UHGV virus genome: UHGV-0246749
Reading direction: 5' to 3' (one strand)
Length of the DNA: 19,123 bases
Source of the DNA: a virus
In this document: in pieces, positions 1-18,964 of the stretch
Numbering within the stretch: the first letter of the stretch is position 1
How the letters are laid out: each line of letters begins with the position of its first letter
Notes under the pieces: model-generated
What the model was told of the DNA's origin: nothing
The model's database searches: none
Seen by the model: the letters and a program-made list of their open reading frames with translations, nothing else
Position numbers and translations under genes: made by a program

Positions 1-9
1 CTGGATTTT

Positions 10-432
10 ATGAATCAGGAAGTAGTCAAAAACGCTAATATGCATCCATCTGGGGTGGGTGTGGGTAGTGACTTTAATCCTGTGTATTCTGGTGACCCTA
101 ATAAACCGAATATGATTAACGAAGGATGGAGTAGAATTTTTAGTTCAATGGGTGAATTGTTTAACAATGCCACAATGAATATTGCAAGATTCAATCATCC
201 AGAATTAATTACCATGAAACAGGATGCATCATTAACGAGCACTGACATCCAAAATCTAAGAGATGAAATTAGTGCTTTGAGTAAGCGTATTCAGGAGCCA
301 GTGAAAGTTTCACTTGGTGGTGAAGTTGCCATTAAACCAGATGAAACCAGCTTTATGACCTTTAGCAGTAGTATCTACGACAAATATTCAGAAACTATGC
401 TACTAAGTTCATCATTCCCAGAAGATGATTGA
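10..432 (+). CDS. Hypothetical protein, AT-rich gene; may be the C-terminal part of a longer ORF since no stop occurs in frame between position 1 and the ATG at 10
   Basis: 140-aa ORF in the six-frame track; no motif recognised; AT-rich by eye like the rest of 1-3000. Confidence 0.4.
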   Translation: MNQEVVKNANMHPSGVGVGSDFNPVYSGDPNKPNMINEGWSRIFSSMGELFNNATMNIARFNHPELITMKQDASLTSTDIQNLRDEISALSKRIQEPVKVSLGGEVAIKPDETSFMTFSSSIYDKYSETMLLSSSFPEDD

Positions 433-588: not shown

Positions 589-1362
589 ATGATTTACACT
601 AATCAGCTTCGTTACACTGGCAAAGATGGCGTTTACTTTCATCTACAAGGCCAGCCAGATAATTTCTTGTCACTATCAGCTACTGAGAACATGGAATTTG
701 ACAGCCCTATGATGGTGACCACTCAAAATATGCAATCAGGGCAGACTGTAACAGATAATGTAATGCGTTCACCAAGAACTATTTCAATTAGTGGTGTGGT
801 TGTGGTTGGTGAATCCGGTAGTACCCTTATCTCACGAGATAATAAGCTGGTGGAGAACTTCATCGACACCCTTGAAACTTGGAGAGACCAGAAACAAATT
901 ATTTCAGTGATTTGTAAAGATGGTATCAAGATTGATGACTCAATTATTACCAACTTTAAAGCCTCTAAAGATGTTACTATCTCTAACGGTCTTAGAATCC
1001 AGCTAACTTTTCAGGAAATTAACTTTAAAGCTATTGTAGGGCAAACTGATATTTCAGCAGCCACTGGCAAAACGGCTACCACAAATGATGGCGGTGCTAC
1101 TTCTAAGAAGAATACTGGCAACACTACGACAAGCTTGGGTAATGGTATGTTGCTGTGTCAGGAGCTATATAATCGCTCTACGAGTGAACTTACTAATGAG
1201 CAACTTCAAGCCCGTATCAATTGTGGTAAAAGTGTCAGAGTTGAGAATGGAAAAAGCACCTTCTCAGATGCCGCTAATGAGCAAGCTTCGAAAGTGCTTA
1301 ATAATGCTGGTGCAGGTAATGTTTTGAAGAGGCTGTCTATTAATCCTAACAAGCGCTACTGA
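589..1362 (+). CDS. Hypothetical Ser/Thr/Asn/Gly-rich protein (cargo of the serine-recombinase element)
   Basis: Track ORF 568-1362; I prefer the ATG at 589, which sits after 'aaaggag' at good spacing. No recognisable domain. Converges on the recombinase gene with a 14-nt gap. Confidence 0.5.
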
Positions 1363-1376
1363 CGATAGAAGCTCAA

Positions 1377-2900
1377 CTATATGATAACCTCATCAACATC
1401 TATCAACCCCCTCTCAGTGACTTCAGAAAGCGACTGTATAGCCTCTGTAACGTCCTCTGAGGGGTTTTCTGTTATTGGTAGGTCAATTAACCTACCGTTG
1501 TGAAAAGTCACTTTACAGCGACGTTTAGCAGTATTTAAAACGACCTCTTTAACAGCACTTCTAATAATCAGTTGTGCTTCAATCCTTCCCGCCTTTGTAG
1601 TCAAGTCACAATCAGACAAACAACCAACATCAATAGATTTAAGGCGTTGTGTCTCCTTCTCGATATCCGCATCAACCTGTGATAGCTCACCTTTTAACTG
1701 CTTTAGTTTGATGGTAATAGCTGACAAATCTTCAATTTCAAGTGATAGCTGTACCAGCTTTTCAATATTGCTTGAGATGTGTTCACGGTGTAGCTTCAAT
1801 GTATCAATGACATTCGTCATATCGCTATCAAATCGGTCAAGACGAGATAGCAGGGTAAGTAATGTACCATCGGTTTGCTTACGTGACAGCCCTTTAGCAC
1901 TACAACGGTTTTCATTACGAAGAGGACAACGATAAATCCCGCTTCTTGTATCGCTAAAGCCTGTGATAATCAGAGCATGACCACATTCAGAACAACGGAT
2001 AACACCTTTAAAGAGATTCACACTCAATGGTTTATCTGAAACAGACCTCTTTCCATAACGAGAATGTGATAGTTGTTGAACTTTGTAGAATGTTGTTTCA
2101 TCTATAATTGCAGGATAATAACCAGATATCTCTTCACAGCCTTTCGGGGTAAAGTATCCAATTACAGAGCGATTCTTCAAAAGGTCTTGCACTGAGGTTT
2201 GACCAAACTTACCCGGCTTGTATTGGTTCATCGACCGGTGACCTTCAGCATTAAGAGTTCTGACAATCTCCCAGATAGACTTACCCTCTAACCGTAGCTG
2301 AAAGCACCTCTTCACAGTTTCTACCTTCTCAGGTATTACAGAGAAGCTTTTACGGTCATCATTAAGCTTAAGCCATGCAGGACAACGTTTAGAAACTTTG
2401 ATACCAGCTTTAGCAGCCTCTTTCTTGGCATCCCATGCAGCCTGTATACGCTCAGCCTTACGTAATGATTCCTCATGCGCCCTTTGCATTATCAAAATGC
2501 TTTTAATCAGAGCTAGCGGGTCTTTAAGAGATTCCTTTGTGTAATGTTCACCATCGGACAGGGTGACTACATCTACACCAGCCCTTAAGATACGGCGTAA
2601 TAGCTCAGAAGCAATATCAATATCCTGACGTGACAAACGGTCTAAACTCTCGATTAGTAGCGTATCACCAGCTTTAACAAGACCTTTCTCGATAGCGGTT
2701 AAGAAGTCACCTAAGCCACCTTTCAAGTGCTTACCAGTGAACCCGCTAACGCCTAAATCACGAAAAGATAAATCTTGGTCAAGGTAGTACTCAGGATGAG
2801 CCTTAAGCCAATCTGTAACCATCTTAGATTGTCTGCGTAGTGAGTCGCCTTTGGCTTGTCGCTCAGAACTGAATCTGATGTAGCTGATTACACGTTTCAT
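1377..2900 (-). CDS. Large serine recombinase (resolvase/invertase-type N-terminal catalytic domain, recombinase domain, zinc ribbon, coiled coil)
   Basis: 507 aa; N-terminal 'VISYIRFSSERQ' fits the catalytic-serine motif of serine recombinases; Cys cluster 'CSECGH...CPLRNENRC' fits the zinc ribbon; ATG at 2900 preceded by GGTGG. AT-rich by eye. Confidence 0.85.
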   Translation of the reverse strand: MKRVISYIRFSSERQAKGDSLRRQSKMVTDWLKAHPEYYLDQDLSFRDLGVSGFTGKHLKGGLGDFLTAIEKGLVKAGDTLLIESLDRLSRQDIDIASELLRRILRAGVDVVTLSDGEHYTKESLKDPLALIKSILIMQRAHEESLRKAERIQAAWDAKKEAAKAGIKVSKRCPAWLKLNDDRKSFSVIPEKVETVKRCFQLRLEGKSIWEIVRTLNAEGHRSMNQYKPGKFGQTSVQDLLKNRSVIGYFTPKGCEEISGYYPAIIDETTFYKVQQLSHSRYGKRSVSDKPLSVNLFKGVIRCSECGHALIITGFSDTRSGIYRCPLRNENRCSAKGLSRKQTDGTLLTLLSRLDRFDSDMTNVIDTLKLHREHISSNIEKLVQLSLEIEDLSAITIKLKQLKGELSQVDADIEKETQRLKSIDVGCLSDCDLTTKAGRIEAQLIIRSAVKEVVLNTAKRRCKVTFHNGRLIDLPITENPSEDVTEAIQSLSEVTERGLIDVDEVII

Positions 2901-3001
2901 TCTTTACCACCATAAAAACTAATAGCAGTTGGGCTTGTTATGAGGATGCTTCATCCGAATCATCTACCAACCCCTAGATTGTATCGCTTTAGGTGGTGTA
3001 T

Positions 3002-3421
3002 TTAAACGTGTCTGATGAAAATCACCCGATTAACGCCGCGCTGATGTAAACCGCGATTAAGCGTTTGTTCCTCTTCCCCTTTGGCGAAAAACTGTGGATG
3101 GCGGACTTCCACACCATAATTAAATTCGCCGGGAAGGGAATCGAGAAAATGCCAAAGCGCAGGCAGATCCCGTGGGCCAAATGTGGCAGGCAGTTGCAGC
3201 CAGTATTGCCCAATGCGCGGCGCTAACGGTGACATGCGGGTCAAAAATTCAGTCACTAAATCATCGCAATGCCGTAATGCTGCCTGATGCGAAATGGTCG
3301 CCGGAAACTTAAAACAGAAGCGAAAATTATCTGTGGTCTGCTCACGCCAGCGCAGGACAACCTCGGATTTCGGCAGGGCGTAAAGCGTGGTGTTGCCCTC
3401 CACACAGTTAACATGACGGGT
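3002..3421 (-). pseudogene. yecE: Internal fragment of a DUF72-family (YecE-like) host gene, apparently truncated at both ends
   Basis: Translation 'VEGNTTLYALPK...FRFCFKFPATISHQ...GVEVRHPQFF' matches the middle of DUF72 proteins as I recall them; similarity seems to continue a few codons upstream of the GTG (HVNCVEG) and then stop near the integrase end; the ORF ends after 'GVNRVI', before the expected C-terminal third. GC content is visibly higher than in flanking DNA. Confidence 0.5.
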
Positions 3422-3445
3422 ATTAAGGATTAACTTACTGATTTT
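3404..3445. other. Approximate attL junction (host DUF72 sequence meets prophage sequence at the integrase stop)
   Basis: Host-like coding similarity is lost within about 30 nt of the integrase stop at 3430; the exact core cannot be set without attR or an empty-site sequence. Confidence 0.3.
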
Positions 3446-4743
3446 AATAAGCCTCTGGTGTCACTTTGGTGACTATGGGGCATCATTGGGACATAATCTG
3501 TCAGCTTCTGATTCAGCATTGCGATCTGTTCTGCATTGCTGTCAGTCATCCATGCTCCGTATACATTGAATACCATCTGGGCACTTGCATGGCCCATCTG
3601 GCTGGCAATGAAGCTTGGGTTTGCTCCGGCAGATAATGACCAGCACGCATAAGTGTGTCGTGACTGGTATGCCTTTCGATGCCTGATCCCTGCACGCTTA
3701 ATGGCTGTTTCCCATGAGTCACCTACAGAATCGACTTTGTAGACAAAACCTACCTGTTCGCTTTTTCTAACCACTTGAGGGTTAAACACGAAAGTACATT
3801 CATGGTTCACTGAACGTCCATATTCACGTAGTTGCACCTTGATGTTGTACTGCTTACCCAGTCTTGTCATTTCAGCCTGATTTTTCAGGACACTGATAGC
3901 GGGCTGGATAAGGTGCACAACCCTGTTTGTGCTTGCTTCAGTTTTCGGTAGAGTGAACTCACCAAGTTTCGTATAATTGCGCCTGATGGTAATTGTTCCT
4001 GCCTTCAGATCGATATCTTCCCAGGCCAGGGAGACCAGTTCACCGTGACGCATTCCTGTGTACACAGCCAATGACCACAGGTTTTTCGTCTGCTGATGTC
4101 GGCAAGCATCTATCAGGCGAATAAATTCGTCACGAGTTAGCGGATCTGGCTCTGCCCTGGCTCTTTTAAGAGGCTTAATTCCCTGGAAGGGATTTGCTTC
4201 TAAGTAACCGTGATCTGCAGCAAACTGAAACATTCCAGCGATTGTCGTCATGTAATAATTTACAGTAACGACGCTCCGTCCTTTTGCTGCTGCTTTGTTT
4301 TTCGTTGAATTCTGATACCCGGTAAGCAAATCTTTCCTGATATACAGCAATTCCTCTTTGGTTACCGATGACACCAGTCTACTGCCTCCAATTTTCGGAA
4401 CCATCGTTCTTGCAACGGATTCATAGCGATTGAATGCATTTGCAGAGATTTCCATTCGTTTCAGATCCAGCCACTTTTCTTCAAGTTCCTTCACCGTAAT
4501 TTCTTTTTTACTTACCCCAAAAGCCTGAAGGTTGGGGGAGTCAGGGAACTGTGCAGCATAATCAAAGCTTCCTGTGCGGATGGCAAAACATACTGATGTC
4601 CGCAGTTCCCCGGCGATCTTCCTGTTCTTGGCAGTGTCAGGGACACCAAGATTTTCCCTGACACGTTTACCTTTAAAATTAAACCAGATGCGTAATGTGC
4701 CGCCGTGGTTTTCGACGCCTGTTGGATATTTGACTTTATCCAT
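3430..4743 (-). CDS. int: Phage tyrosine integrase
   Basis: 437 aa; C-terminal catalytic region contains 'GMRHGEL', 'HRKAYQSRHTYACW' and 'HASAQMVFNVYGAWM', consistent with the R..H-x-x-R..Y active site; sits at the prophage end facing the att junction. Confidence 0.9.
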   Translation of the reverse strand: MDKVKYPTGVENHGGTLRIWFNFKGKRVRENLGVPDTAKNRKIAGELRTSVCFAIRTGSFDYAAQFPDSPNLQAFGVSKKEITVKELEEKWLDLKRMEISANAFNRYESVARTMVPKIGGSRLVSSVTKEELLYIRKDLLTGYQNSTKNKAAAKGRSVVTVNYYMTTIAGMFQFAADHGYLEANPFQGIKPLKRARAEPDPLTRDEFIRLIDACRHQQTKNLWSLAVYTGMRHGELVSLAWEDIDLKAGTITIRRNYTKLGEFTLPKTEASTNRVVHLIQPAISVLKNQAEMTRLGKQYNIKVQLREYGRSVNHECTFVFNPQVVRKSEQVGFVYKVDSVGDSWETAIKRAGIRHRKAYQSRHTYACWSLSAGANPSFIASQMGHASAQMVFNVYGAWMTDSNAEQIAMLNQKLTDYVPMMPHSHQSDTRGLLKSVS

Positions 4744-4798
4744 CGATACCTCCAGACGCCCAAGAGCGATACGAGCTTACATATTTCATGATATTAAA

Positions 4799-5035
4799 TC
4801 ACCTGGGTTGTTTGTTTTTCATTGAGGCGACCCAGGCATCTATTGCTTTTCTGTTATACATACATTCACTGGAAGGCTTTGGATTACCGTCTGGTGATAC
4901 GTGAATATACTCTCTTCCAACCATCCAGCATTCTTTCCGGGCCCGAAGAATTGTGCCTGGTTTGAGCCCGGTAATTGCGATAAGAACGCTTTCACAAACC
5001 CATTCATTGGGAGCCAGTTGAATCACATTGCCCAT
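4799..5035 (-). CDS. xis: Putative excisionase / recombination directionality factor
   Basis: 78-aa ORF immediately upstream of int on the same strand; the sequence resembles enterobacterial prophage excisionase-like proteins as I remember them; position is typical. Confidence 0.55.
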   Translation of the reverse strand: MGNVIQLAPNEWVCESVLIAITGLKPGTILRARKECWMVGREYIHVSPDGNPKPSSECMYNRKAIDAWVASMKNKQPR

Positions 5036-5043
5036 GTATTACC

Positions 5044-5190
5044 TCACACAACACTCAGCCCACGGCAGTGGCAACACACTTCAAACATTCGCTTCACAAC
5101 TTCACGACAGTAGAAGCCGTCAACATCTCGCGTCAGGTCATAGCGATTGCCGTAACGCTGGTGGACCCATCGTTCAAATGCTTTATTCAT
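5044..5190 (-). CDS. Small Cys-rich protein (48 aa), not in the ORF track
   Basis: My own translation: MNKAFERWVHQRYGNRYDLTRDVDGFYCREVVKRMFEVCCHCRGLSVV; ATG preceded by AGGAAG; start lies 1 nt after the upstream gene's stop, and its own stop is 8 nt from the xis start. Confidence 0.4.
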   Translation of the reverse strand: MNKAFERWVHQRYGNRYDLTRDVDGFYCREVVKRMFEVCCHCRGLSVV

Positions 5191-5193
5191 TCT

Positions 5194-5472
5194 TTACTTC
5201 CTTTTTATGGCTCGTAATTTTTTCAGGTGCTTTTCCTGCTCAGTGTCCGCGAGAATTTTGCGGTACTCCTGGTGGTCAATATGTTCGAACAGGCAGTTTA
5301 ACTCACCAATGCGTACCCGCCCTGATCGTCCGTCCATCCGTCGAAAGAACACTGAGTGCTCAGTGATGCGAGTAATCACCACGGGGTATCCGGCTCTGTC
5401 CGTGTATATCTGACCGCGTTGAATCAAAGCGAACATGTGGTTATCCCCATCGACAAATCGAGAACACAACAA
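5194..5472 (-). CDS. Hypothetical phage protein; start uncertain (track start is TTG, an internal ATG lies at 5436)
   Basis: 92-aa track ORF; no ATG upstream in frame (I traced back to a stop). Confidence 0.4.
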   Translation of the reverse strand: MLCSRFVDGDNHMFALIQRGQIYTDRAGYPVVITRITEHSVFFRRMDGRSGRVRIGELNCLFEHIDHQEYRKILADTEQEKHLKKLRAIKRK

Positions 5473-5520
5473 ACGCTGCTGCGAAGACCACCCCCAGAGT
5501 TACGATTGCATCAGGCCAGC

Positions 5521-6033
5521 TCATTGATTCACCTCCTGCCTGTCGTCCGGCATTCGCTCACTACAGCTTATCCAACCATCCGGAGTTACCGGAGAGCTGG
5601 TTGACGCTTCCGGGATTTTCCGAAAATTATTGGTTGACGAATCTTTATTTTCCCGAAAGTTTCCGGACTGAAGCATGGCTTCGCGGCAATCGTTCCAGCC
5701 TGTAGCGTATGCAGCCGCTTTGCTGCTGCCTTCAACTGGCGCATCCTGCCAATACATTTCTTCCGGCACTATCGGCGCTGGAGGGGCGGCAAATAGATAT
5801 CCGCCAAAGTCAGGAAGCTCTCTAATGGCCTGTACGAATTTTTGTTTGCCTACGTCAACTCCTAATGGGTAATGAGCTATAATCTTTGCCACCGGCTCTG
5901 CTGCCAGTGATGCCAGCGCAATCCGTGCCAGCTCTTCCGCTTCTTCTGCTGGAAGCACAACGTTGCTACCCGGTCCGTATGTTTCGCGCCACTGCTTGAT
6001 TGTCAGCAGTCGCTCTTTGGTTATAGTGGTCAT
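5521..6033 (-). CDS. Phage protein with DUF551-like C-terminal motif, possibly truncated
   Basis: 170 aa ending '...DGWISCSERMPDDRQEVNQ'; the 'W-I-x-C-x-E-R-x-P' pattern fits the start of DUF551 domains, but the ORF stops about 12 residues later. Confidence 0.55.
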   Translation of the reverse strand: MTTITKERLLTIKQWRETYGPGSNVVLPAEEAEELARIALASLAAEPVAKIIAHYPLGVDVGKQKFVQAIRELPDFGGYLFAAPPAPIVPEEMYWQDAPVEGSSKAAAYATGWNDCREAMLQSGNFRENKDSSTNNFRKIPEASTSSPVTPDGWISCSERMPDDRQEVNQ

Positions 6034-6043
6034 GTGTTACTCC

Positions 6044-6307
6044 TTAACCCGCAGTGCTTTCAACTGATGAGGGGAACAAAATCTTTTCATCAAACCCTGC
6101 ATTCATATCATGGACAGCAACACACCAATCCATCGACGAACGATTATCAAGAGCCTCCATGATTTCATCCATGCGGCGTAGGTCATACAGGTAAATGGTT
6201 TTATCGCCAATGGTGTAAAAACCAATTTTTTTTGGTGATGGACAGCGATCAAGAACGTCCTGTAATTCATTCAACCATGCCCGTTCTTTTTTTGTTAAAG
6301 TGGCCAT
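6044..6307 (-). CDS. Hypothetical phage early protein
   Basis: 87-aa ORF with ATG start, tightly packed between neighbours on the same strand. Confidence 0.5.
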   Translation of the reverse strand: MATLTKKERAWLNELQDVLDRCPSPKKIGFYTIGDKTIYLYDLRRMDEIMEALDNRSSMDWCVAVHDMNAGFDEKILFPSSVESTAG

Positions 6308-6308
6308 A

Positions 6309-6845
6309 TCACTCTCCTTTGATACGAATGTCAGCGACGCGTAATGCGTGTTCTAGGTCAATCAGGTAAAGCCAACTGCCATTTTCTTTAGGTATCATGA
6401 CTTGTCGCTCATCTGCATTTATCGGGTGTCCATATCGAAGGTCGTAGCGAGTCGGTAATTGAACTTCCCGCGCTTCCAGTTCAGCAATACGCTTGCACCC
6501 ATCAGAGATAACTCCCTCGTAATACTCGCGCTGCTCGTTGAGTTTTGATTTTGCTGCTTCAAGCTCAACGCGCAGCTTCCCAACCGTAAGCGCAATATCC
6601 TCGTTCTCCTGGTCGCGGCGTTTGATGTATTGCTGGTTTCTTTCCCGTTCATCCAGTAGTGCCAGCACGGTTTCTGGTCCGGTCAGAAATTTGAAGGCAT
6701 TGAGCGCATCAATATCCACACCGTAATCTTTAAGTTCCTGTTCACTTAACAAATCATCATCAGCTGGCAACATTAACAGGCGTTCCATTGCTGGAATTGC
6801 ACGTTCCGCCACCTCACGCAGTGACTGGTAATTAATTTCGCTCAC
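6309..6845 (-). CDS. Ea22-like protein (paralog 1)
   Basis: 178 aa; N-terminus 'MSEINYQSLREVAERA' matches the conserved N-terminus of the neighbouring paralog; GTG start overlaps the upstream stop as GTGA. Confidence 0.6.
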   Translation of the reverse strand: MSEINYQSLREVAERAIPAMERLLMLPADDDLLSEQELKDYGVDIDALNAFKFLTGPETVLALLDERERNQQYIKRRDQENEDIALTVGKLRVELEAAKSKLNEQREYYEGVISDGCKRIAELEAREVQLPTRYDLRYGHPINADERQVMIPKENGSWLYLIDLEHALRVADIRIKGE

Positions 6846-7528
6846 TGGTTGCCTCCTTTGCGAAGCTGGGCAGCAAAGTCAACTAACCACTCAGTCATTT
6901 CAACCTTCCCTACCAGGTCTGAACCAGGGTGCATACAGCAATCACTCTGCGCCGCTTTGAAATCCTTATACTCATATTCTTGGGCCACCAGATTTTTTGC
7001 AGCTTCTATAGCAGCATCCACCCCCTGCGCCCGGACTTCAGCCAGGAAAGCATCAGTGGTTGGCGTTTCAGGTATCTGTCTCCTCATCCGTTCTATTGCA
7101 TGATTGAACCCGAAGTCTTCCGCGAGAGATACGTCATCCATATTGTCATTGTCATCCTCAATATCCCGTGATTCTGGAATTGCAGACTTTATTCCCGCAT
7201 TCTCCGCTGTCAGCGCCGCGCACTTGGCCTCAAGAGCGGCAACCACTTCCTGATGGTCTTTGTACTTAACGTATGAGCCGGAGATGTCATCACCTTCGGT
7301 GTTTAGCCATGCGTCATTGCAATTCACTGCGTAGGTTCTGATGCTCATGTTGATGCTCTCCCGCCCCTGACAGACGCCAGGCCAGTCAATAAAGTATCCG
7401 CAATGCCTACCCTCAGACGTGCGCGCAGGATAAATGCCGTTATGACCCGGCAAAATATATGCTACCCATTCATCTTGCGTTGCCTGTTCCGCCGCCTCGC
7501 GCAGTGCCTGATAGTCAATCTTGCTCAC
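6842..7528 (-). CDS. Ea22-like protein (paralog 2)
   Basis: 228 aa; N-terminus 'MSKIDYQALREAAEQA'; GTG start; acidic stretch and coiled-coil-like segment. Confidence 0.6.
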   Translation of the reverse strand: MSKIDYQALREAAEQATQDEWVAYILPGHNGIYPARTSEGRHCGYFIDWPGVCQGRESINMSIRTYAVNCNDAWLNTEGDDISGSYVKYKDHQEVVAALEAKCAALTAENAGIKSAIPESRDIEDDNDNMDDVSLAEDFGFNHAIERMRRQIPETPTTDAFLAEVRAQGVDAAIEAAKNLVAQEYEYKDFKAAQSDCCMHPGSDLVGKVEMTEWLVDFAAQLRKGGNQ

Positions 7529-7853
7529 TGGCAGCCTCCTTTGCCGGGATTTCTAACTTTTGAGTGGTTGTATCAAATTCAAACAACTTAACCACGTCAT
7601 CAAACAGGACATAATCACCATCAGGATCTTCAGTCATATCTGCGCCACAATCCTGACCGCACGAGTCGCAACCATCCATATCAAGCTCGTATCGCTTCAG
7701 GTTTGCGATATTTGATAAATTCAGCGCCAGTACAGCCAGGTCATAAACCTCTTCGGCAGTGACATCGCTGTTCAGTCCCATTTCATGGCGATATATGATT
7801 TTTTCTACTCGTTGTTTTGTGATCGTCATTTTTCTCTTCACTCCGATATACAA
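7515..7853 (-). CDS. Hypothetical phage protein, start uncertain (TTG at 7853; ATG at 7829 after GGAG; ATG at 7781 one nt after the upstream stop)
   Basis: 112-aa track ORF; acidic Cys-containing C-terminal half; the choice of start changes the overlap with the upstream gene. Confidence 0.45.
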   Translation of the reverse strand: MYIGVKRKMTITKQRVEKIIYRHEMGLNSDVTAEEVYDLAVLALNLSNIANLKRYELDMDGCDSCGQDCGADMTEDPDGDYVLFDDVVKLFEFDTTTQKLEIPAKEAASEQD

Positions 7854-8100
7854 GGATTACTACACCCCCTCTGCTGATTGCGCGAGCTGGATCCCCTGGT
7901 TCCATGCCGTCAATTCCGAAGGCTTCGGAAAACGCATTCATTGCCTTCTGGCGTTCATCCTGCTTACGGCGTTTATTCCATTTTTTCAGGAACAACAGCG
8001 ACAGCCACCGTCCGCTGCAGAACACGATGTAAAAATAACCAAGGAGCGCCAGGCCGACATTCAGGGCCGTTTCTATGGTTAGTTGTGAGTCAGTTGCCAT
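7783..8100 (-). CDS. Small putative membrane protein (one hydrophobic helix followed by a basic stretch)
   Basis: N-terminal 'LNVGLALLGYFYIVFCSGRWLSLLFL' is hydrophobic, followed by 'KKWNKRRKQDERQK'; ATG start at 8100. Confidence 0.45.
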   Translation of the reverse strand: MATDSQLTIETALNVGLALLGYFYIVFCSGRWLSLLFLKKWNKRRKQDERQKAMNAFSEAFGIDGMEPGDPARAISRGGVVILVYRSEEKNDDHKTTSRKNHISP

Positions 8101-8338
8101 TTCTTACCTGTTTAAGTAACTGGTTGAACATAACACTTAGGGGATTGCTGTATCCAAACGGCAGATTGTTTACGCAGTACAGAATCGTTTTGTTTTTTTC
8201 TCCAGTTCGTACTATTAACCCATTCCACAATAACCGTGATAATTCATTACTGATAGAAGTTGCGCTTCTTCCAAGTGCGAGGGATATATCTTCTCTACTG
8301 CAATCTGGATTTTCCTGGATATACTCGATAACGGTCAT
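8090..8338 (-). CDS. Small protein with possible winged-helix fold
   Basis: Track ORF 8090-8380; I prefer the ATG at 8338 (MTVIEYIQ...), preceded by AAGGGA and clear of the upstream gene. Confidence 0.45.
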   Translation of the reverse strand: MTVIEYIQENPDCSREDISLALGRSATSISNELSRLLWNGLIVRTGEKNKTILYCVNNLPFGYSNPLSVMFNQLLKQVRNGN

Positions 8339-8348
8339 GTGGTCCCTT

Positions 8349-8930
8349 TTACTTAATATCTGTTTCGGATTGCATGCCATGAGTATTCATTTCGTTAATA
8401 ATTTCATCCAGAAGGATTTCAAGCCCTTCTCGACCCATATCTGAAAGAATGAAACCTTTATCAGGGGAAGTAGTGAGCATTTTCTGATAAAGAAACAGCG
8501 CTCTTCCCATTCCTTCAGCTTCGCCGTATTTTTGAATTAAATTCCATTCAATATACTGTTGTAAGGCAAATCGAATGGGGCCGGGATATATCGTCATAAA
8601 CCCATACATCCCGTTATATACCACGGCGTGTTCAATTGTTCCGTGTTCATTCAGGATATCAATTGTGCCGTTCTTGTCTTCTTCTTCGTTGATGAATGTC
8701 GTCACATACAACCATCGCCACTGAGCAACCTTCATCTCAACCGGAAGTTTACCCAGTAATCCTGCTTCGTCGGCTTGCGCCAGACACTGAAGGATACGTA
8801 AACCTCGCACATTAGGAGTATCGAATTCTCCGGCATCCAGACGACGTATGGCGTCGTGATAATCAATCGTCATACTGCCAGTTCGTATACCATTGGCTGT
8901 TGCTTCAGCCTGGAATTCATCGTATTGCAT
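8349..8930 (-). CDS. Hypothetical protein, 193 aa, no recognised domain
   Basis: ATG start; translationally coupled to the upstream 60-aa gene (its stop TAA lies within the GAGGAA ribosome-binding region). Confidence 0.6.
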   Translation of the reverse strand: MQYDEFQAEATANGIRTGSMTIDYHDAIRRLDAGEFDTPNVRGLRILQCLAQADEAGLLGKLPVEMKVAQWRWLYVTTFINEEEDKNGTIDILNEHGTIEHAVVYNGMYGFMTIYPGPIRFALQQYIEWNLIQKYGEAEGMGRALFLYQKMLTTSPDKGFILSDMGREGLEILLDEIINEMNTHGMQSETDIK

Positions 8931-8935
8931 GATAT

Positions 8936-9118
8936 TTATTCCTCATCTTCATCTGCTGGTGCAATAACGTCATATCCTGCCCTTTCTGCAATAAACAGGA
9001 ATGTTGAAAGAGTTCCTACAAGTTCATCGTCATGAACATGGCGAATGAATATTACTTTCCCGTTTTTGATGGTCAGCAATATTCTGGTTTGTTCGTGTTC
9101 TGCTGTTTTCTGATGCAT
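8936..9118 (-). CDS. Hypothetical small protein, 60 aa, acidic C-terminal tail
   Basis: ATG preceded by GGGAG; ends 'APADEDEE'; 5-nt gap to the next gene. Confidence 0.5.
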   Translation of the reverse strand: MHQKTAEHEQTRILLTIKNGKVIFIRHVHDDELVGTLSTFLFIAERAGYDVIAPADEDEE

Positions 9119-9120
9119 TA

Positions 9121-9234
9121 TTATCTCCCGTATGCTTTACGCAGAAATAAGCAGGCAATATGCATGTAATTTTCACCGTATTGTGCAATAAGGCAGGCGG
9201 TCTTGTGTGATGCCATATTCTTTATAAAAGTCAC
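9121..9234 (-). CDS. Possible small ORF (37 aa), not in the ORF track
   Basis: My own translation: (GTG)TFIKNMASHKTACLIAQYGENYMHIACLFLRKAYGR; AGGAGG lies 7 nt before the GTG; its stop is 2 nt before the 60-aa gene start. Could be non-coding leader instead. Confidence 0.25.
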   Translation of the reverse strand: MTFIKNMASHKTACLIAQYGENYMHIACLFLRKAYGR

Positions 9235-9312
9235 AATAAAGCCTCCTGTGGTTTAAGGTTGTAACAATCCCCGGCGATAAAACCGCAATAAACGTTCAGG
9301 GCATATTTGTTG

Positions 9313-9678
9313 TTATTGCGCTAATTCTTTTTCGGCAGCAGCTTTTGTATACTCACATGCAAAACTCAGAATTTCGCTGCCGAGTGTTTTCGTTTCGTGA
9401 TTACTGGACATATGTAATACCTGTGTTGCATGCAATAAATGATAAACATTTACCGCAAATGAATCAGGCTCCAGGCAAATGCCTTCGTAATTATCTTGCT
9501 GTGAGGTTGTTTCTGTCATTGCTCCTGAAGTGCATACGAGCCTGTTTTTGACAATTCTCTTTTCTCTAATCACTATATCGGCAACATCTATTGCCTTTAC
9601 AACCTCCGGGAGAAGTTCCGGGTTTGTATAATCAAAGTCATCAACATGGAGAACAGTTATGTTTTCGAACTTTTTCAT
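9313..9678 (-). CDS. Hypothetical protein, 121 aa, AT-rich gene
   Basis: ATG preceded by GAGGA at 5-nt spacing; flanked by AT-rich intergenic DNA on both sides; no recognised domain. Confidence 0.55.
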   Translation of the reverse strand: MKKFENITVLHVDDFDYTNPELLPEVVKAIDVADIVIREKRIVKNRLVCTSGAMTETTSQQDNYEGICLEPDSFAVNVYHLLHATQVLHMSSNHETKTLGSEILSFACEYTKAAAEKELAQ

Positions 9679-9806
9679 GGTTTCCTCAGCTGACTTATAT
9701 GTTCTGCTATATAGCGAGTCTCAGAAGTGTTTTCATATTGAGACTGTTTCCGCAATGATTGATAAAAATGTTCGCATGTACCTTGAGGGGCGAAGCGGCG
9801 ATTATG

Positions 9807-10310
9807 TCACCATTGGTATTGGTTCTTCCGTAGAAGAGCTTCGCGAGATAAGGGGCAAACTTGTTGAGATGCGTCATGGTGTTGCTGCTCCTCACTTTTT
9901 GGTTGCTCCGGAGGAGTAACCTCACCAGTTAACAGCCACATCGGATCGCAGCCAAGAATATTTGCCAGTGGGATAAGCATACTGATAGTTGGTTCATACT
10001 CTCCGCTCTCCCACTGGATGATAATTTCTTCATCGAGATCGAGCAGCCTGGCGAGTTCGGCGGTTGTTAAGCCGCAGGCTTCGCGTTGGGTGCAAAGACG
10101 GTTGTTGATTGCAGAATTTTTGTTCTGTAAAAGCATTGCTGACGATAGCTTTCTGGATATGCTATTTGTCATATCCCATGCCAGTCCTGCGCATGACTCT
10201 ATATCGCTAGAGAGCGTAGCATCAGGTGTTGCTTTTGCTATTAGTGTAATGAGGCTGCCGAGGTTTTTCAGTTCTTCGAGACAGTCAAGAGTTGTAGCTT
10301 TATTGATCAT
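9807..10310 (-). CDS. HTH (XRE-type) DNA-binding protein with a 58-aa N-terminal extension; first gene downstream of the putative pL
   Basis: 'CGLTTAELARLLDLDEEIIIQWESGEYEPTISMLIPLANILGCDPMWLLTG' is a classic XRE-family helix-turn-helix; ATG at 10310 preceded by GAGG; an internal ATG at 10136 would give an N-terminal HTH instead. Confidence 0.6.
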   Translation of the reverse strand: MINKATTLDCLEELKNLGSLITLIAKATPDATLSSDIESCAGLAWDMTNSISRKLSSAMLLQNKNSAINNRLCTQREACGLTTAELARLLDLDEEIIIQWESGEYEPTISMLIPLANILGCDPMWLLTGEVTPPEQPKSEEQQHHDASQQVCPLSREALLRKNQYQW

Positions 10311-10413
10311 GAGATGATACCTCAGTTACGAACTTTGTTTTATGGTAACTAAGGTATCAAGGTGTGGCAAGTGATTTTTGATACTTTGGTTTCTTTTTGT
10401 GTTTTGTGTCTGG
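10311..10413 (-). promoter_or_regulatory. Putative OL/pL region: two copies of the operator 12-mer plus a leftward promoter
   Basis: 'ttgatactttgg' at 10378-10389 and its near-reverse-complement 'ctaaggtatcaa' at 10349-10360; on the minus strand -35 TTGCCA (10365-10370), 17-nt spacer, -10 TACCAT (10342-10347). Confidence 0.45.
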
Positions 10414-11070
10414 TCAGAAAATATCCCACCTGGCATCAACCACAACACCTACTATTTCGCAATCATTGTCCATTTCTATGATTGGATATTGTGGATTAAG
10501 GGGCTTTAGAAACGCCTTTCCCATGTCAGAAATATATTTTTTGAATGTTGCTTCATTGGTAGATTTTTTTCTGGCGATGACGTAACACCCTGAAAAAACT
10601 TCTTTATCTGGGTTGACAAGGATCGACATTCCTTCAGGAAATGTTATTCCTACGGGCGAAGTCATTGAGTCTCCGTGCACTTCCAGCCAGAACCCCCTCT
10701 CACCAGCGTATTTTACAGAATGCCTCCAATTATCCTGATCATACATGTTGTAGTCATCACCAGAAGTTGCGAATAATCCTGCCTGAACCCAGTTAATTAC
10801 AGGGTAAGAGTGTGCTGTGTCTCTCTGTGGGCAGCTCTTAACATTATTTTCCCAATGCTTATCTTTTTCATCTCCGTTCTGAAGCCACTGCGGTGAACAC
10901 CGCAGTGCAGCTGCAACTTTAAAAAGGGTGTCACCGTTGAAACTTTTTGTAAGGCCTTGCTCGGCTTTACTTATTGCAACTCTGGTGACCCCAGCTTTTT
11001 TAGCCAACGCATCTTGTGTTAACCCAGCTTTTTGCCGTGCGTTGATGAGACGTTCACCTAAAGACTTCAT
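10414..11070 (-). CDS. cI: CI-type prophage repressor (N-terminal HTH, C-terminal LexA/S24 peptidase-like domain)
   Basis: Track ORF extends to 11145, but the ATG at 11070 (MKSLGERL...) follows AGGAG. N-terminal HTH 'LTQDALAKKAGVTRVAISKAEQG'; C-terminal 'HGDSMTSP' and 'ARKK' fit the S24 Ser/Lys dyad; 'VQAGLF' contains a possible Ala-Gly autocleavage site. Confidence 0.85.
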   Translation of the reverse strand: MKSLGERLINARQKAGLTQDALAKKAGVTRVAISKAEQGLTKSFNGDTLFKVAAALRCSPQWLQNGDEKDKHWENNVKSCPQRDTAHSYPVINWVQAGLFATSGDDYNMYDQDNWRHSVKYAGERGFWLEVHGDSMTSPVGITFPEGMSILVNPDKEVFSGCYVIARKKSTNEATFKKYISDMGKAFLKPLNPQYPIIEMDNDCEIVGVVVDARWDIF

Positions 11071-11181
11071 TTTTCTTCTCCTCTCATGGCTGTTGATACT
11101 AAAGTAACAGAATTTCTTGATACTTTGGGTTCCTGTGGTTAACATCGTTGGATAACAAAGTATCTGGCGTGAGACTAAAGA
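11071..11181. promoter_or_regulatory. Putative OR/pR/pRM region: three copies of the operator 12-mer and a rightward promoter
   Basis: 'ttgatactaaag' at 11093-11104, 'ttgatactttgg' at 11117-11128, reverse copy 'caaagtatct' at 11156-11165; rightward -35 TTGATA (11117-11122), 17-nt spacer, -10 TAACAT (11140-11145). Confidence 0.5.
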
Positions 11182-11409
11182 ATGACCCTTTATGAAATAT
11201 TAAAAATTCAATTTAAAACCAATGCCGCTATTGGTCGCAGGTTCCCAAAGAAAGGAAGGCCTCGTGGCAGTCAAGGTGTTGGAAAGTGGAAAACGCGAGG
11301 TGTTCCGGAGGATGTTGCCATTCTTTGTCATCTGGATCCGAGCATTCCATATACACACCCAAGTCTAGCGAATACAGAAGATGACAAGCCCACAGGAGAC
11401 CAACAATGA
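11182..11409 (+). CDS. Possible small basic protein in the Cro position; could be non-coding leader
   Basis: 75-aa ORF rich in K/R/G with no HTH I can recognise; weak ribosome-binding site; stop overlaps the next ATG. Confidence 0.3.
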   Translation: MTLYEILKIQFKTNAAIGRRFPKKGRPRGSQGVGKWKTRGVPEDVAILCHLDPSIPYTHPSLANTEDDKPTGDQQ

Positions 11410-12113
11410 ACACCGCAATTTTTAACGGCAAAGCATCCATGACCAGCGTTGAGATCGCAGAGTTGGTGGGAAGCCGACCAGATAGTGTTAAGAGAACTAT
11501 TGAAACACTGGCTAAAAAGGGAATCATCCAATTTCCACAGACTGTGGAAATTGAGAATAAACAATCACTTGGGCCTCGCCGATTTTCTAGCGCGTATGTA
11601 TTCGAAGGTGAACGAGGTAAGCGCGACAGCATCATTGTCGTCGCACAGCTCTGTCCTGAATTCACAGCTTGCCTGGTAGATCGCTGGCGCGAACTGGAAG
11701 AACAGATCCGTAAGCCAATGAGCGAAATCGAAATGGTTGCCGCGATGGCTCTTGAAGCCGTTCGCCAACAGAAACGGATCACTCAGGTGGAAGAAAAAGT
11801 CAGCCACGTTGCTGAAACAGTCGAGCAAATTAAAAAGGGCACTATTCGTGAGGGCTATGCCGGATATCGCCAACTGAAAGCAAAAACCGGTTTGTCAGAT
11901 GATAAATGCCGCAATCTGGTGAACGCCTATCAAATTCCTACAGACACACATGAGTTCATGACGCCGGACGGATTGTTGTCACGTCGCGCAATTGTTGCTG
12001 TGGAACCGTTTATGGCTGCTTTTTATCGGGTTATGGAGGAAGCAGAACCGCGAGGGACTCGCTGGTATCACCCGAAAATGGGGTTATTTCAGGTTATTGG
12101 TTGGCAGCGATGA
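11406..12113 (+). CDS. Rha-like / antirepressor-like DNA-binding regulator
   Basis: 235 aa; ATG preceded by AGGAG; N-terminal 'MTSVEIAELVGSRPDSVKRTIETLAKKG' parallels the N-terminal region of the Rha protein at 12526. Confidence 0.55.
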   Translation: MNTAIFNGKASMTSVEIAELVGSRPDSVKRTIETLAKKGIIQFPQTVEIENKQSLGPRRFSSAYVFEGERGKRDSIIVVAQLCPEFTACLVDRWRELEEQIRKPMSEIEMVAAMALEAVRQQKRITQVEEKVSHVAETVEQIKKGTIREGYAGYRQLKAKTGLSDDKCRNLVNAYQIPTDTHEFMTPDGLLSRRAIVAVEPFMAAFYRVMEEAEPRGTRWYHPKMGLFQVIGWQR

Positions 12114-12136
12114 AAAAAAGCCGGGAGTAACCCGGC
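12113..12136 (-). terminator. Intrinsic terminator oriented for leftward transcription
   Basis: Seven A's (12113-12119) then stem gccggg / cccggc with loop agtaa (12120-12136); on the minus strand this is a hairpin followed by a U-tract. No T-tract follows on the plus strand. Confidence 0.4.
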
Positions 12137-12332
12137 TCACTCAACATCAATAACGGGGAGCTGTTTCGCATAAAACGGCTCCGAAACATCCAAGAACAGT
12201 TCTAAAGATATCAGCAGCTATATGATCATTTCAAGACCAAATATTGATTCTGCAATTCCGGGACGTTACACTGCTCAGGCACCTTATAAAGCGGGTGCCG
12301 GGCGTGGAAACCCGAAATTCAATATAGAGCAC

Positions 12333-12354
12333 AACCGCGCTCATGCGGTTTTTT
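12333..12354 (+). terminator. Weak candidate rightward terminator (tR1-like position)
   Basis: 'aaccgc gctcat gcggtt' followed by T's to 12354; short GC stem, so low confidence. Confidence 0.3.
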
Positions 12355-12525
12355 CGTGTCATGAGCATCGTTACGCCCAAATTATGGTGGGGCGTGCAGG
12401 GCCAACTTCGGTTGGGCCGGGTTCTATGTTGACCGGTATTTCCACCCCTGTACGTCTCACCACCTATATGGTCGTGGAAAGCCTTGGTGGTGAGTTCATT
12501 GAATTCAACATAGGGGCTGTCACCA

Positions 12526-13076
12526 TGACTACTCTCCCAACCCAATCTCACCCTGAAATCACGATTATCAATGGTCGCGTTGTCACCACATCTCTTGCAG
12601 TAGCTAATTACTTTACTAAACGGCATGAGCGGGTTTTAGATAGAATTAGAAACCTCGAATGTTCCGCTGAATTTACTGAACACAATTTTGTGTTAAGTGA
12701 ATACACCGACGCATCAGGCCGCAAACTACCTTGCTATCAAATCACCCGCGATGGCTTCGCGTTCCTTGCCATGGGCTTCACTGGTAAACGTGCTGCCCGG
12801 TTCAAAGAGGCATACATCAACGCCTTTAACCTGATGGAGAAGAGTTTATCAGGTGCCGATGCGTCTGATATGTCAGCTGTCGCACGAAACGCCAGAGGCG
12901 TATACCTGCATTTGCGTGAAATCCATCAAATCTGGACAAGCCAGCTTTATCCAATGCTTAAGGCCGTTGAATCTCCGCTGGCTAGCAAACTGTACGACCG
13001 TGTTGGTGATGCTGTTTTTGGCGCTGCACTTGTTGATTCCAGGCTGAATGGTTCTGACAAGGAGGTTCGCCCATGA
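12526..13076 (+). CDS. Phage regulatory protein Rha
   Basis: 'ITIINGRVVTTSLAVANYFTKRHERVLDRIRNL...ITRDGFAFLAMGFTGKRAARFKEAYINAFNLMEK' matches the Rha family as I recall it. Track ORF starts at 12222, but the upstream 101 codons look non-coding; I take the ATG at 12526. Confidence 0.7.
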
Positions 13077-13267
13077 TTAGTTACGAAATCATCATCTCCA
13101 CTACGGAATACAGAAACGATGTATCAGTTCGCACGGATGTATCTGTCTGGCACCGTCGCTATAAATCCAGAAAAACAGCGGAACTGAAAGCGGCAGAGAT
13201 GTGTGAAACCATCTCAATGAAAGGTAGCCCGGTTAAATACGTAACTACGGTGGAGGTGCGTCCATGA
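13073..13267 (+). CDS. Hypothetical small protein (64 aa)
   Basis: ATGA overlap with the Rha stop; part of a chain of coupled small ORFs. Confidence 0.45.
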   Translation: MISYEIIISTTEYRNDVSVRTDVSVWHRRYKSRKTAELKAAEMCETISMKGSPVKYVTTVEVRP

Positions 13268-13488
13268 TCCGCCACATCGTTAATTCCCTGTATCACCGAT
13301 ACAACCGTTGCCCCCGTGTGGGGCAGTGGTTCGCCACCAGCAACGGTCACGTTCTGCGGGTTTGCCTAGTCAACGCTGAAAGCCAGAAAGTCGTGTGCGA
13401 ACTACAGGGGCGTAGCTACACCATCAGTTACCCTCTGGCGGTATTTCTGTCTGGAAAAATGTTTAAGCGTCTGGGAGGTGTGGCGTGA
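13264..13488 (+). CDS. Hypothetical small protein (74 aa)
   Basis: ATGA overlap with the upstream stop; Cys-containing. Confidence 0.45.
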   Translation: MIRHIVNSLYHRYNRCPRVGQWFATSNGHVLRVCLVNAESQKVVCELQGRSYTISYPLAVFLSGKMFKRLGGVA

Positions 13489-14773: not shown

Positions 14774-14783
14774 GGTGACAGCG

Positions 14784-17334: not shown

Positions 17335-17380
17335 TGGCTGAATTTTTTTCTCCTGCGTTCATGCAATACCGTTCGCTGAG

Positions 17381-18376: not shown

Positions 18377-18393
18377 TTTTGTGGAGAAAGTTG

Positions 18394-18777: not shown

Positions 18778-18913
18778 TATGCAATTGTTTACTAAAAGTT
18801 ATTAAAAATGGGGCGTGGAAACGCCCCCAAATAAAGGGTAATATATAACAGAAGGTTTATATAGTAAGAAGCAAGGTAGTGCTTCTAAAGGAAGTGGCTT
18901 GAGGGCTCCACTT

Positions 18914-18953: not shown

Positions 18954-18964
18954 CGTAAGTCAGA

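What the first reader, a model, noticed from the sequence alone, without database searches (positions are those of the whole stretch)
2901..3445. A roughly 420-bp internal fragment of a YecE-like gene sits between two different integrases
The DUF72 reading frame is bounded on one side by the tyrosine-integrase prophage (integrase stop at 3430) and on the other, about 100 bp beyond its premature end, by the start of a large serine recombinase. The fragment lacks both the N-terminal region and the expected C-terminal third. This looks like two independent insertions into the same host gene; yecE is a recognised lambdoid and Stx-phage integration site in E. coli.
Basis: partly seen in the sequence, partly recalled or inferred. 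Interest (0 to 1): 0.6.

Follow-up and report, generated by a model that had tools for sequence, protein, structure and literature searches.

The report
yecE split by two mobile elements
The E. coli gene yecE has been cut into three pieces by two unrelated mobile elements, each inserted at its own site by its own recombinase; this is an ordinary outcome of known mechanisms, though the smaller element is itself an undescribed and curious one.

Summary
Window 3018-3411 (minus strand) is a 394-bp internal piece of yecE, nt 86-479 of the K-12 gene at 96.7% identity.

Right boundary: this is the attL of a phiP27-type lambdoid prophage. The 11-bp core CACACAGTTAA lies at 3401-3411, and the tyrosine integrase gene ends at 3430.

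Left boundary: this is the crossover dinucleotide (3018-3019; TT of codon 160) of a large-serine-recombinase (LSR) element. That element is about 11.4 kb, not a full prophage.

Each insertion occurs alone in other genomes. Strain U1 has only the prophage and is 100% identical to window 3018-19123. GCA_000159895.2 and PEC1009 have only the LSR element. Each junction type is found in about 5% of 5,426 complete E. coli genomes. Both together occur in at least 6 of them and in 4 IMG/VR loci.

The window is a whole metagenome contig. A chimera is very unlikely, because the two parental haplotypes share only 59 exact bases next to the junction and k was 119.

The phiP27 site is published. I found no description of the LSR site.

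Side lead: the LSR element carries a tape-measure and Dit-like gene pair related to FelixO1-like virulent phages, both under purifying selection. It may be a new satellite-like family.

The parts
1..432 (+). 3' end (last 143 codons) of the tape-measure gene of the serine-recombinase (LSR) element
   Evidence: In frame with the 725-aa TMP of the identical element in GCA_000159895.2 (L014 12469-14646; PF20155 TMP_3). Window 1-3017 has 0 mismatches to that isolate.
589..1362 (+). Dit-like distal-tail / 'baseplate' protein gene of the LSR element (ORF opens at TTG 568; ATG 589 is the start used in related genomes)
   Evidence: PF21821 Dit_like and phrog_3721. 72% aa identity to Felixounavirus TP1 gp018. 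dN/dS 0.10-0.13 between diverged copies.
1377..2900 (-). Large serine recombinase (507 aa)
   Evidence: Pfam Resolvase + Recombinase + Zn_ribbon_recom and phrog_95 integrase. The N-terminal motif YIRFSSERQ with the catalytic Ser is readable in the translation. dN/dS 0.18.
2995..3017 (.). Element-side half-site of the LSR attachment site (GGTGTATTTAAACGTGTCTGATG)
   Evidence: It forms an imperfect dyad with the far-end arm seen in PEC1009: 17 of 23 symmetric positions, reached by 0 of 20,000 shuffles.
3018..3019 (.). LSR crossover dinucleotide AA (TT in yecE sense; yecE nt 478-479, codon L160)
   Evidence: These are the only bases shared by attB (K-12), both junctions and the reconstructed attP in PEC1009. 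The 100% identity to U1 begins at 3018.
3018..3411 (-). Internal fragment of host gene yecE (DUF72), nt 86-479 of 819
   Evidence: 100% identical to U1's chromosomal yecE, and 14 SNPs away from the allele of the LSR-only isolate.
3401..3411 (.). phiP27-type att core in attL (CACACAGTTAA; yecE nt 86-96)
   Evidence: The phiP27 record annotates attL at its bases 1-11 (CACGCAGTTAA), which equal window 3401-3411. The same core is at attR in U1. The published att is CAYGCAGTTAA (PMC5592225).
3412..3448 (-). Prophage-side attL arm. It keeps about 20/25 identity to yecE around the core and supplies 15 substitute N-terminal codons (IKISKLILNTRHVNC)
   Evidence: In single lysogens PGAP calls a 256-aa DUF72 CDS that starts here and overlaps int by 19 nt.
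3430..4743 (-). phiP27-type tyrosine integrase (437 aa)
   Evidence: Pfam Arm-DNA-bind_2 + Phage_integrase. 94.2% DNA identity to phiP27 int/xis.
4799..5035 (-). Excisionase
   Evidence: Annotated as excisionase in U1, SCU-387 and phiP27. PF06806 is recorded for the contig's own gene call (L016).
3412..19123 (.). Early region of the lambdoid prophage: int, xis, Ea22-like genes, cI/LexA-like repressor, Rha regulators, replication genes, Q antiterminator, and the start of a phage-borne ompC-like porin gene
   Evidence: 100% identical to strain U1, whose annotation is (window coordinate = L003 coordinate + 17). In U1 the prophage is about 48 kb and ends at yecE 5' / yecD.

Best explanation
The contig comes from an E. 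coli whose chromosomal yecE gene was cut twice by two independent site-specific recombination events.

(1) A lambdoid prophage with a phiP27-type tyrosine integrase and excisionase recombined its attP with the 11-bp core CAC(G/A)CAGTTAA in yecE codons 29-32. This displaced the first 85 nt of yecE, together with yecD, to the far end of the ~48-kb prophage.

(2) An ~11.4-kb island recombined through its large serine recombinase. Its ~48-bp quasi-palindromic attP met a weakly symmetric attB at the TT of codon 160. This displaced the last 340 nt of yecE, together with yecN, to the island's far end.

What remains between the two recombinase genes is the 394-bp middle of yecE. All three genes (int, the yecE fragment, LSR) point the same way.

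The haplotype pattern suggests an order of events: the host was already a U1-like lysogen when the LSR island integrated.

Shown: both junction sequences, the cores, the single-occupancy states, and the haplotype switch at the LSR crossover.

Inferred: that these two enzymes catalysed the events, the order of the events, and loss of YecE function.
For: Identity of the fragment.

Prophage junction: the phiP27 attL annotation coincides with window 3401-3411. attR in U1 carries the same core next to the yecE 5' piece and yecD. The published att at yecE is CAYGCAGTTAA (PMC5592225), SE11's yecE prophage has an 11-nt duplication (PMC2608844), and the 21-bp att of O145:H28 yecE phages contains the same core (PMC8112680).

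LSR junction: attB, attL and attR share only TT. attP arm symmetry is 17/23, with p<5e-5 by shuffling. The element is bounded by the yecE 3' piece and yecN in PEC1009, JKHS016, E32511 and GCA_000159895.2.

Independence: the LSR junction spans in 280 of 5,426 complete genomes and the P27 junction in 308. Both occur together in SCU-387, FDAARGOS_1252, MS20645, OZ547152, EC12 and JKHS016, and in IMG/VR loci L021, L024, L026 and L027, whose LSR variants are 91-95% identical.

Haplotypes: window 1-3017 has 0 mismatches to the LSR-only isolate GCA_000159895.2. Window 3018-3411 has 14 mismatches to it. Window 3018-19123 is 100% identical to the prophage-only strain U1.
Against: Neither far end lies inside the window, so the displaced 5' and 3' yecE pieces were seen only in surrogate genomes.

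The source is a MEGAHIT metagenome contig, and no read-level data were available.

Each half is 100% identical to a different isolate, and no sequenced isolate has both halves at 100%. Taken alone, that is the pattern a chimera would give.

Recombinase activity and the exact cleavage positions were not tested experimentally.

The attL core differs by one base (A at 3404) from the attR core in U1 and from phiP27, and this is unexplained.
Confidence: 0.9

Rival explanations
1. Assembly chimera. The metagenome held two E. coli strains, one with only the LSR island in yecE and one with only the prophage. The assembler joined them through the shared middle of yecE.
For: The window is an entire metagenome contig. 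Its left 3,017 bp are 100% identical to an LSR-only isolate, and its right 16,106 bp are 100% identical to prophage-only isolates.
Against: The two parental haplotypes differ at 14 SNPs within the fragment. Next to the LSR junction they share only 59 exact bases, and 98 at most anywhere in the fragment, whereas 118 are needed for a k=119 join. The 119-mers covering 3017-3077 must therefore come from real molecules.

A two-strain graph would branch at both junctions, yet the contig runs through both. The same contig is recorded in 2 samples. The same architecture exists in at least 6 closed genomes.
Confidence: 0.04
2. The order of events is reversed, by homologous recombination. An LSR-island-bearing strain acquired the prophage together with the adjacent yecE middle piece from a U1-like donor (by transduction or conjugation), not by integrase action in that cell.
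For: The fragment carries the donor-type (U1) allele throughout, which imported DNA would also show.
Against: One recombination endpoint would have to fall within the 59 bp between SNP 3077 and the LSR junction. LSR integration into an intact attB of a U1-like lysogen explains the exact coincidence of the haplotype switch with the crossover dinucleotide without that constraint.
Confidence: 0.05
3. There was a single insertion of a composite element that already carried a yecE-like piece. Some ompW prophages do carry a 100-bp yecE-derived attB.
For: Prophage-borne yecE-like attB copies are documented (PMC8112680).
Against: Those copies are about 100 bp at 87% identity. This piece is 394 bp, 96.7% identical to K-12, and 100% identical to U1's chromosomal yecE, which continues into yecN. 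Both single-occupancy states exist. In single-occupancy genomes the two yecE pieces add up to the whole gene, with only the core duplicated.
Confidence: 0.01

Closest known systems
Stx2e phage phiP27 integrated in yecE (AJ298298)
   Same: The integrase/excisionase region is 94.2% identical in DNA. The 11-bp att core, its position in yecE (nt 86-96) and the int-proximal attL layout are all the same.
   Different: Only the first ~1.9 kb resembles phiP27. The rest is a different lambdoid mosaic, closest to PhiR49_2 and to the U1 prophage. No stx gene is annotated in the 100%-identical U1 prophage. The core has A rather than G at window 3404.
yecE-integrated Stx1a/Stx2a/non-Stx prophages of O145:H28, O26:H11 and SE11 (PMC8112680, PMC5592225, PMC2608844)
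   Same: The same attB is used. Their 21-bp att TCCACGCAGTTAATGTGACGG contains the 11-bp core. The early-region genes are partly shared at about 93%.
   Different: Their integrase ('intR', 428 aa) shows no megablast-level similarity to this one. None of those papers mentions a second, serine-recombinase site in yecE.
Large serine recombinase integration into protein-coding genes (A118 in comK, SPbeta in spsM, skin/SpoIVCA in sigK, phiC31, Bxb1) - from general knowledge
   Same: The three-domain architecture matches (Resolvase, Recombinase, zinc ribbon). So do the ~50-bp attP with imperfect dyad symmetry, the weakly symmetric attB, and the non-palindromic 2-bp crossover.
   Different: It is only distantly related in sequence. 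The best solved relative is A118 integrase, at E about 5e-4 over about 70 residues. The cargo is an 11.4-kb island, not a phage. No recombination directionality factor was identified.
Prophage-in-prophage / tandem prophages (PMC8112680)
   Same: Several mobile elements pile up at one chromosomal locus.
   Different: Here two different recombinase families use two different attB sites, 382 bp apart, inside the same host gene. Neither element sits inside the other or uses an attB carried by the other.
Phage satellites (P4-like, PICI, cfPICI, PLE, PICMI) - applies to the LSR island only
   Same: The island is small (11-13 kb), has an integrase and a replication-initiator-like protein, and lacks capsid, portal and terminase genes. 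It carries homologues of a specific phage group's structural genes, and it is conserved under purifying selection.
   Different: It uses a serine rather than a tyrosine integrase. Its cargo is a tape-measure plus Dit-like pair related to virulent FelixO1-like phages. There is no evidence of induction, packaging or interference. No hit to any described satellite family was sought beyond Pfam, PHROGs and PADLOC.

Membership tests
yecE / DUF72 (PF01904) | Significant match to the DUF72 profile | tested here: met
   E=5.6e-34, 118.5 bits against a cut-off of 25.3. Only profile positions 16-138 of 217 are covered.
yecE / DUF72 (PF01904) | Orthology to E. coli yecE (sequence and synteny yecD-yecE-yecN) | tested here: met
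   96.7% DNA identity to K-12 yecE nt 86-479. In U1, PEC1009, JKHS016 and GCA_000159895.2 the other pieces adjoin yecD and yecN.
yecE / DUF72 (PF01904) | Complete coding sequence | tested here: not met
   Codons 1-28 and 161-272 are absent from the window. It is a gene fragment.
phiP27-type tyrosine integrase / attachment at yecE | Tyrosine recombinase catalytic domain plus an N-terminal arm-binding domain | tested here: met
   PF00589 (E=3e-18) and PF12167 (E=1e-23). R...HxxR-like (SRHT) ...GH...Y motifs are visible in the translation (by eye only).
phiP27-type tyrosine integrase / attachment at yecE | The 11-bp core CAYGCAGTTAA is duplicated at both prophage ends inside yecE | tested here: met
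   attL is in the window at 3401-3411. attR was seen in the 100%-identical U1 prophage. The repeat is 10/11, not 11/11. The window itself does not reach attR.
phiP27-type tyrosine integrase / attachment at yecE | Integrase-mediated integration and excision activity | not testable with these tools
   Requires an experiment.
Large serine recombinase (LSR) integrative element | Resolvase catalytic domain with an N-terminal Ser, a Recombinase domain, and a zinc ribbon | tested here: met
   PF00239, PF07508 and PF13408 all score above their cut-offs. The YIRFSSERQ motif is present.
Large serine recombinase (LSR) integrative element | attP of about 50 bp with imperfect dyad symmetry, and a 2-bp non-palindromic crossover shared with attB | tested here: met
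   attP was reconstructed from the PEC1009 junctions: 17/23 symmetric positions, 0 of 20,000 shuffles as good. Only TT is shared.
Large serine recombinase (LSR) integrative element | Precise empty site in genomes that lack the element | tested here: met
   K-12 and U1 have uninterrupted attB. U1 is identical to the window from the crossover dinucleotide onward.
Large serine recombinase (LSR) integrative element | Recombination directionality factor / demonstrated excision | not tested
   No candidate was identified. Five to seven small ORFs have no family hit.
Phage satellite (for the LSR island) | Lacks its own capsid and packaging genes but has integrase and replication functions | tested here: met
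   Pfam, PHROGs and NCBIfam scans of all annotated ORFs of the JKHS016 copy.
Phage satellite (for the LSR island) | Induction, replication and packaging depend on a helper phage | not testable with these tools
   The only evidence is indirect. The TMP termini and the Dit-like protein are specifically FelixO1-like.
Sakai SpLE2 (a lead from memory) | Located in yecE | tested here: not met
   PMC3519850 places SpLE2 in the sbcB-containing fragment, not at yecE. The lead was dropped.

The most novel reading that the evidence does not exclude
The ~11.4-kb serine-recombinase island in yecE belongs to an undescribed family of satellite-like, or phage-interfering, integrative elements of Enterobacteriaceae that target FelixO1-like (Ounavirinae) virulent phages.

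Evidence that does not exclude this reading:
- It carries a tape-measure protein whose docking ends, but not its middle, match the FelixO1-type TMP.
- The adjacent Dit-like protein is 72% identical to the phage's gp018.
- It has its own replication-initiator-like protein and a Dam methylase.
- It has no capsid or packaging genes.

The yecE double occupancy would then record a very recent transfer of such an element into a lysogen.
Probability: 0.3. Interest if true: 0.7.

Novelty: new member of a known kind. Interest (0 to 1): 0.33.

Why it matters
For the finding as posed, the value is mainly annotation. It gives base-exact coordinates for two separate attB sites in yecE, at nt 86-96 and nt 478-479.

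It also shows that PCR or in-silico 'yecE occupied' assays used for Stx-phage typing can be triggered by a non-phage island, which is present in about 5% of complete E. coli genomes, including O157:H7.

The identical island in two hosts whose yecE alleles differ by 3.6% shows that this serine recombinase is currently active in nature. It has a defined ~48-bp attP and a defined attB, which could interest people who collect LSRs for genome engineering.

The island's FelixO1-like tail-gene pair is a testable lead to a possible new satellite or anti-phage element aimed at a phage group widely used for Salmonella and E. coli biocontrol.

Tried and rejected
1. SpLE2 of O157 Sakai (a 13.5-kb element recalled from memory) as the identity of the LSR island. 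The literature places it near sbcB, so I dropped it.

2. A third attB in yecE for O145:H28 Stx phages (21-bp att). It contains the phiP27 core, so it is the same site.

3. Using PhiR49_2 to learn which core base (A or G at 3404) is phage-borne. The record is delimited at prophage ends and not at attP, so it is uninformative.

4. Synthetic two-junction queries to count double-occupancy genomes exactly. Megablast lost short or variant arms, so these give only a lower bound: 4 by that route, and at least 6 overall.

5. PADLOC and NCBIfam scans of the island gave no defence system and no support for PGAP's 'transposase' label on the 234-236-aa protein. A tblastn of that protein against phages found nothing. 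BLASTP of the 71- and 234-aa proteins against the Felixounavirus tail chaperones found no similarity.

6. The promoter/terminator scan around the fragment found nothing above chance. I make no claim about read-through from int or yecD into the LSR gene.

7. IMG/VR hits to the LSR are mostly provirus calls from isolate genomes, so they say nothing about packaging.

8. Locus L002 (K-12) was never exported to the sandbox. K-12 comparisons were done with DNA alignment and by reading the sequence.

Full report
**What is in the sequence**

The window has a 507-aa serine recombinase ORF on the minus strand at 1377-2900 and a 437-aa tyrosine integrase ORF on the minus strand at 3430-4743. Between them is a minus-strand frame that matches Pfam DUF72 (E=5.6e-34), but only over profile positions 16-138 of 217.

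K-12 yecE lies between yecD and yecN. Reading both sequences side by side and aligning them shows that window 3018-3411 corresponds to yecE nt 86-479: 394 bp with 13 mismatches, 96.7% identity. The integrase stop is at 3430. The recombinase start is about 100 bp beyond the premature stop. Both ends of the gene are missing. The true yecE-derived length is 394 bp, not about 420 bp.

**Right junction: a phiP27-type prophage**

Window 3401 onward matches phage phiP27 from base 1 of its record at 94% identity through int and xis. The depositors annotate bases 1-11 (CACGCAGTTAA) as attL.

Strain U1 is 100% identical to window 3018-19123. In U1 the same core sits about 48 kb away, next to a 105-nt yecE 5' piece and yecD. 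This gives:
- attB: ...gttgccctc CACGCAGTTAA agtggcgggc...
- attL (window): ...gttgccctc CACACAGTTAA catgacgggt...
- attR (U1): ...attccgtat CACGCAGTTAA agtggcgggc...

The literature gives the same 11-bp att for yecE prophages (CAYGCAGTTAA, PMC5592225; an 11-nt duplication in SE11, PMC2608844). The 21-bp att described for O145:H28 yecE phages contains this core.

The prophage arm keeps about 20/25 identity to yecE around the core. It provides 15 substitute codons (IKISKLILNTRHVNC, against ...EEYARHFNC in K-12). In single lysogens PGAP therefore calls a 256-aa 'complete' DUF72 protein that overlaps int by 19 nt. The first conserved segment of the domain is nevertheless gone.

**Left junction: a large-serine-recombinase island**

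In PEC1009 the same recombinase sits in yecE without any prophage. The yecE 5' part is continuous with yecD, and the yecE 3' part next to yecN lies 12 kb away. The two junctions and K-12 share only a TT (AA on the window strand, 3018-3019; yecE nt 478-479, codon L160).

The reconstructed attP is GGTGTATTTAAACGTGTCTGATG-AA-GATTAGCAAGGTCTAAATACACC. Its arms are symmetric at 17 of 23 positions, and none of 20,000 shuffles reached that. attB is barely symmetric, at 8 of 26. This is the usual anatomy of large serine integrase sites.

The protein has the Resolvase, Recombinase and zinc-ribbon domains. Its closest solved relative is the A118 integrase, and only distantly.

**Independence and frequency**

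Junction-spanning queries find the LSR junction in 280 of 5,426 complete E. coli genomes, O157:H7 strains among them, and the phiP27-type junction in 308.

Both occur together in at least six closed genomes: SCU-387, FDAARGOS_1252, MS20645, OZ547152, EC12 and JKHS016. They also occur together in four IMG/VR loci whose recombinases are only 91-95% identical to this one. The double occupancy has therefore arisen more than once.

JKHS016 shows the layout from yecN into the prophage: yecN - yecE 3' - island (~10.8 kb) - yecE middle - prophage.

**Is the contig real?**

The exact recombinase protein led to the source. The window is a complete 19,123-bp MEGAHIT contig (k119) of ENA assembly ERZ19650702. 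This raised the possibility of a chimera.

- Window 1-3017 has 0 mismatches to isolate GCA_000159895.2, which has only the island. There the island is 11,409 bp and the yecE allele is K-12-like.
- Window 3018-3411 has 14 mismatches to that isolate, the first at 3077.
- Window 3018-19123 is identical to prophage-only U1.

Next to the junction the two parental haplotypes share only 59 exact bases, and at most 98 anywhere in the fragment. That is below the 118 needed to merge paths at k=119. So k-mers linking the U1-type allele to the island arm must come from real molecules. In addition, a two-strain graph would have broken the contig at both junctions. I put the chimera at about 4%.

The coincidence of the haplotype switch with the crossover dinucleotide is best read as recent LSR-mediated integration of an identical island into a U1-like lysogen. 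That sets the order as prophage first, island second. Import of the prophage by homologous recombination is a weaker alternative.

**What the island is (side observation)**

The island was seen in four genomes:
- PEC1009: 12.1 kb
- JKHS016: 10.8 kb
- E32511: 13.4 kb, including an IS
- GCA_000159895.2: 11.4 kb

It encodes:
- a Dam-like methylase
- an HTH_36 replication-initiator-like protein
- several small proteins with no family hit
- a 723-725-aa tape-measure protein
- a Dit-like protein
- the LSR

There are no capsid, portal or terminase genes, and no defence-system hits.

The Dit-like protein is 72% identical to gp018 of Felixounavirus TP1, with about 55 consecutive identical residues. In that phage gp018 directly follows the TMP gene.

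The TMP is only 34% identical overall to the phage TMP. However, its first ~45 residues (~80% identical) and its extreme C-terminus match.

Diverged island copies keep intact, equal-length genes, with dN/dS of 0.10-0.13 for Dit and 0.18 for the LSR, at dS of 0.27-0.87.

A Citrobacter genome has the same gene order, with a 34%-identical LSR.

I found no paper that links satellites to FelixO1-like phages, and none that describes a serine-recombinase element in yecE. This looks like a maintained mobile element family that may parasitise or interfere with FelixO1-like phages. That remains a hypothesis.

**Comparison with what is known, and verdict**

The prophage insertion is a textbook case of a published site. 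The island insertion follows the standard LSR mechanism at a site that, as far as my searches show, has not been described, although PGAP annotations expose it in hundreds of genomes.

Two different recombinase families using two attB sites 382 bp apart in one host gene makes a tidy example of an integration hotspot. It is not mechanistically surprising.

I file the finding as a new member of a known kind and rate its interest as modest. The island's tail-gene cargo is the part that deserves follow-up.

Noticed in passing
window 1-3017; full element in L014 9882-21292, L008 6140-16985, L006 36454-48522: The serine-recombinase element is an ~11-13-kb island. It carries a tape-measure gene and a Dit-like gene related specifically to FelixO1-like (Ounavirinae) virulent phages: Dit is 72% aa identical, and the TMP is conserved only at its termini. 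It also has a replication-initiator-like protein and a Dam methylase, and no capsid or packaging genes. The genes are under purifying selection. The same architecture, with a different LSR, occurs in Citrobacter. It may be an undescribed satellite or interference element.
   Followed up: partly
whole window (= ena:ERZ19650702:k119_38659): The window is an entire metagenome contig. Its two parts are each 100% identical to a different isolate: 1-3017 to GCA_000159895.2, and 3018-19123 to strains U1 and NMBU_W05E18. The switch falls exactly at the LSR crossover. The identical island therefore sits in hosts whose yecE alleles differ by 3.6%, which implies recent horizontal transfer.
   Followed up: yes
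window 3404 (within the att core 3401-3411): The attL core reads CACACAGTTAA here, in U1 and in PhiR49_2. The attR core in U1, the K-12 attB and phiP27 all read CACGCAGTTAA. The 'direct repeat' is therefore 10/11. I could not determine whether the A comes from the host allele or from the phage.
   Followed up: partly
window 3412-3448 (minus strand): The prophage arm supplies an in-frame substitute N-terminus for yecE. In single lysogens PGAP annotates this as an intact 256-aa DUF72 protein. Its apparent start codon is ATT, and it overlaps the integrase gene by 19 nt. Automated annotation can thus hide the disruption of yecE.
   Followed up: partly
window 18394-19123: A Q-type antiterminator gene (quuD, 18394-18777) is followed by the end of a prophage-borne ompC-like porin gene on the opposite strand (from 18965), and the contig stops inside it. 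In the identical U1 prophage, tRNA-Ile/Arg/Arg and a SASA-family (NanS-p-like) esterase follow, which is the usual surroundings of stx genes. No stx gene is annotated there.
   Followed up: no
window 17387-18376: RefSeq flags the DUF968 gene in the identical U1 prophage as a pseudogene with an internal stop.
   Followed up: no
(other genomes): The O104:H4 outbreak lineage (C227-11, 2011C-3493, HUSEC2011) carries a yecE prophage whose attL arm is 100% identical to the window's.
   Followed up: no
L009 (E. coli O157:H7 E32511) 6681-20055: O157:H7 strains carry the same island in yecE, here with an IS1203 insertion and no prophage. 'yecE occupied' typing results in O157 need not indicate an Stx phage.
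   Followed up: partly
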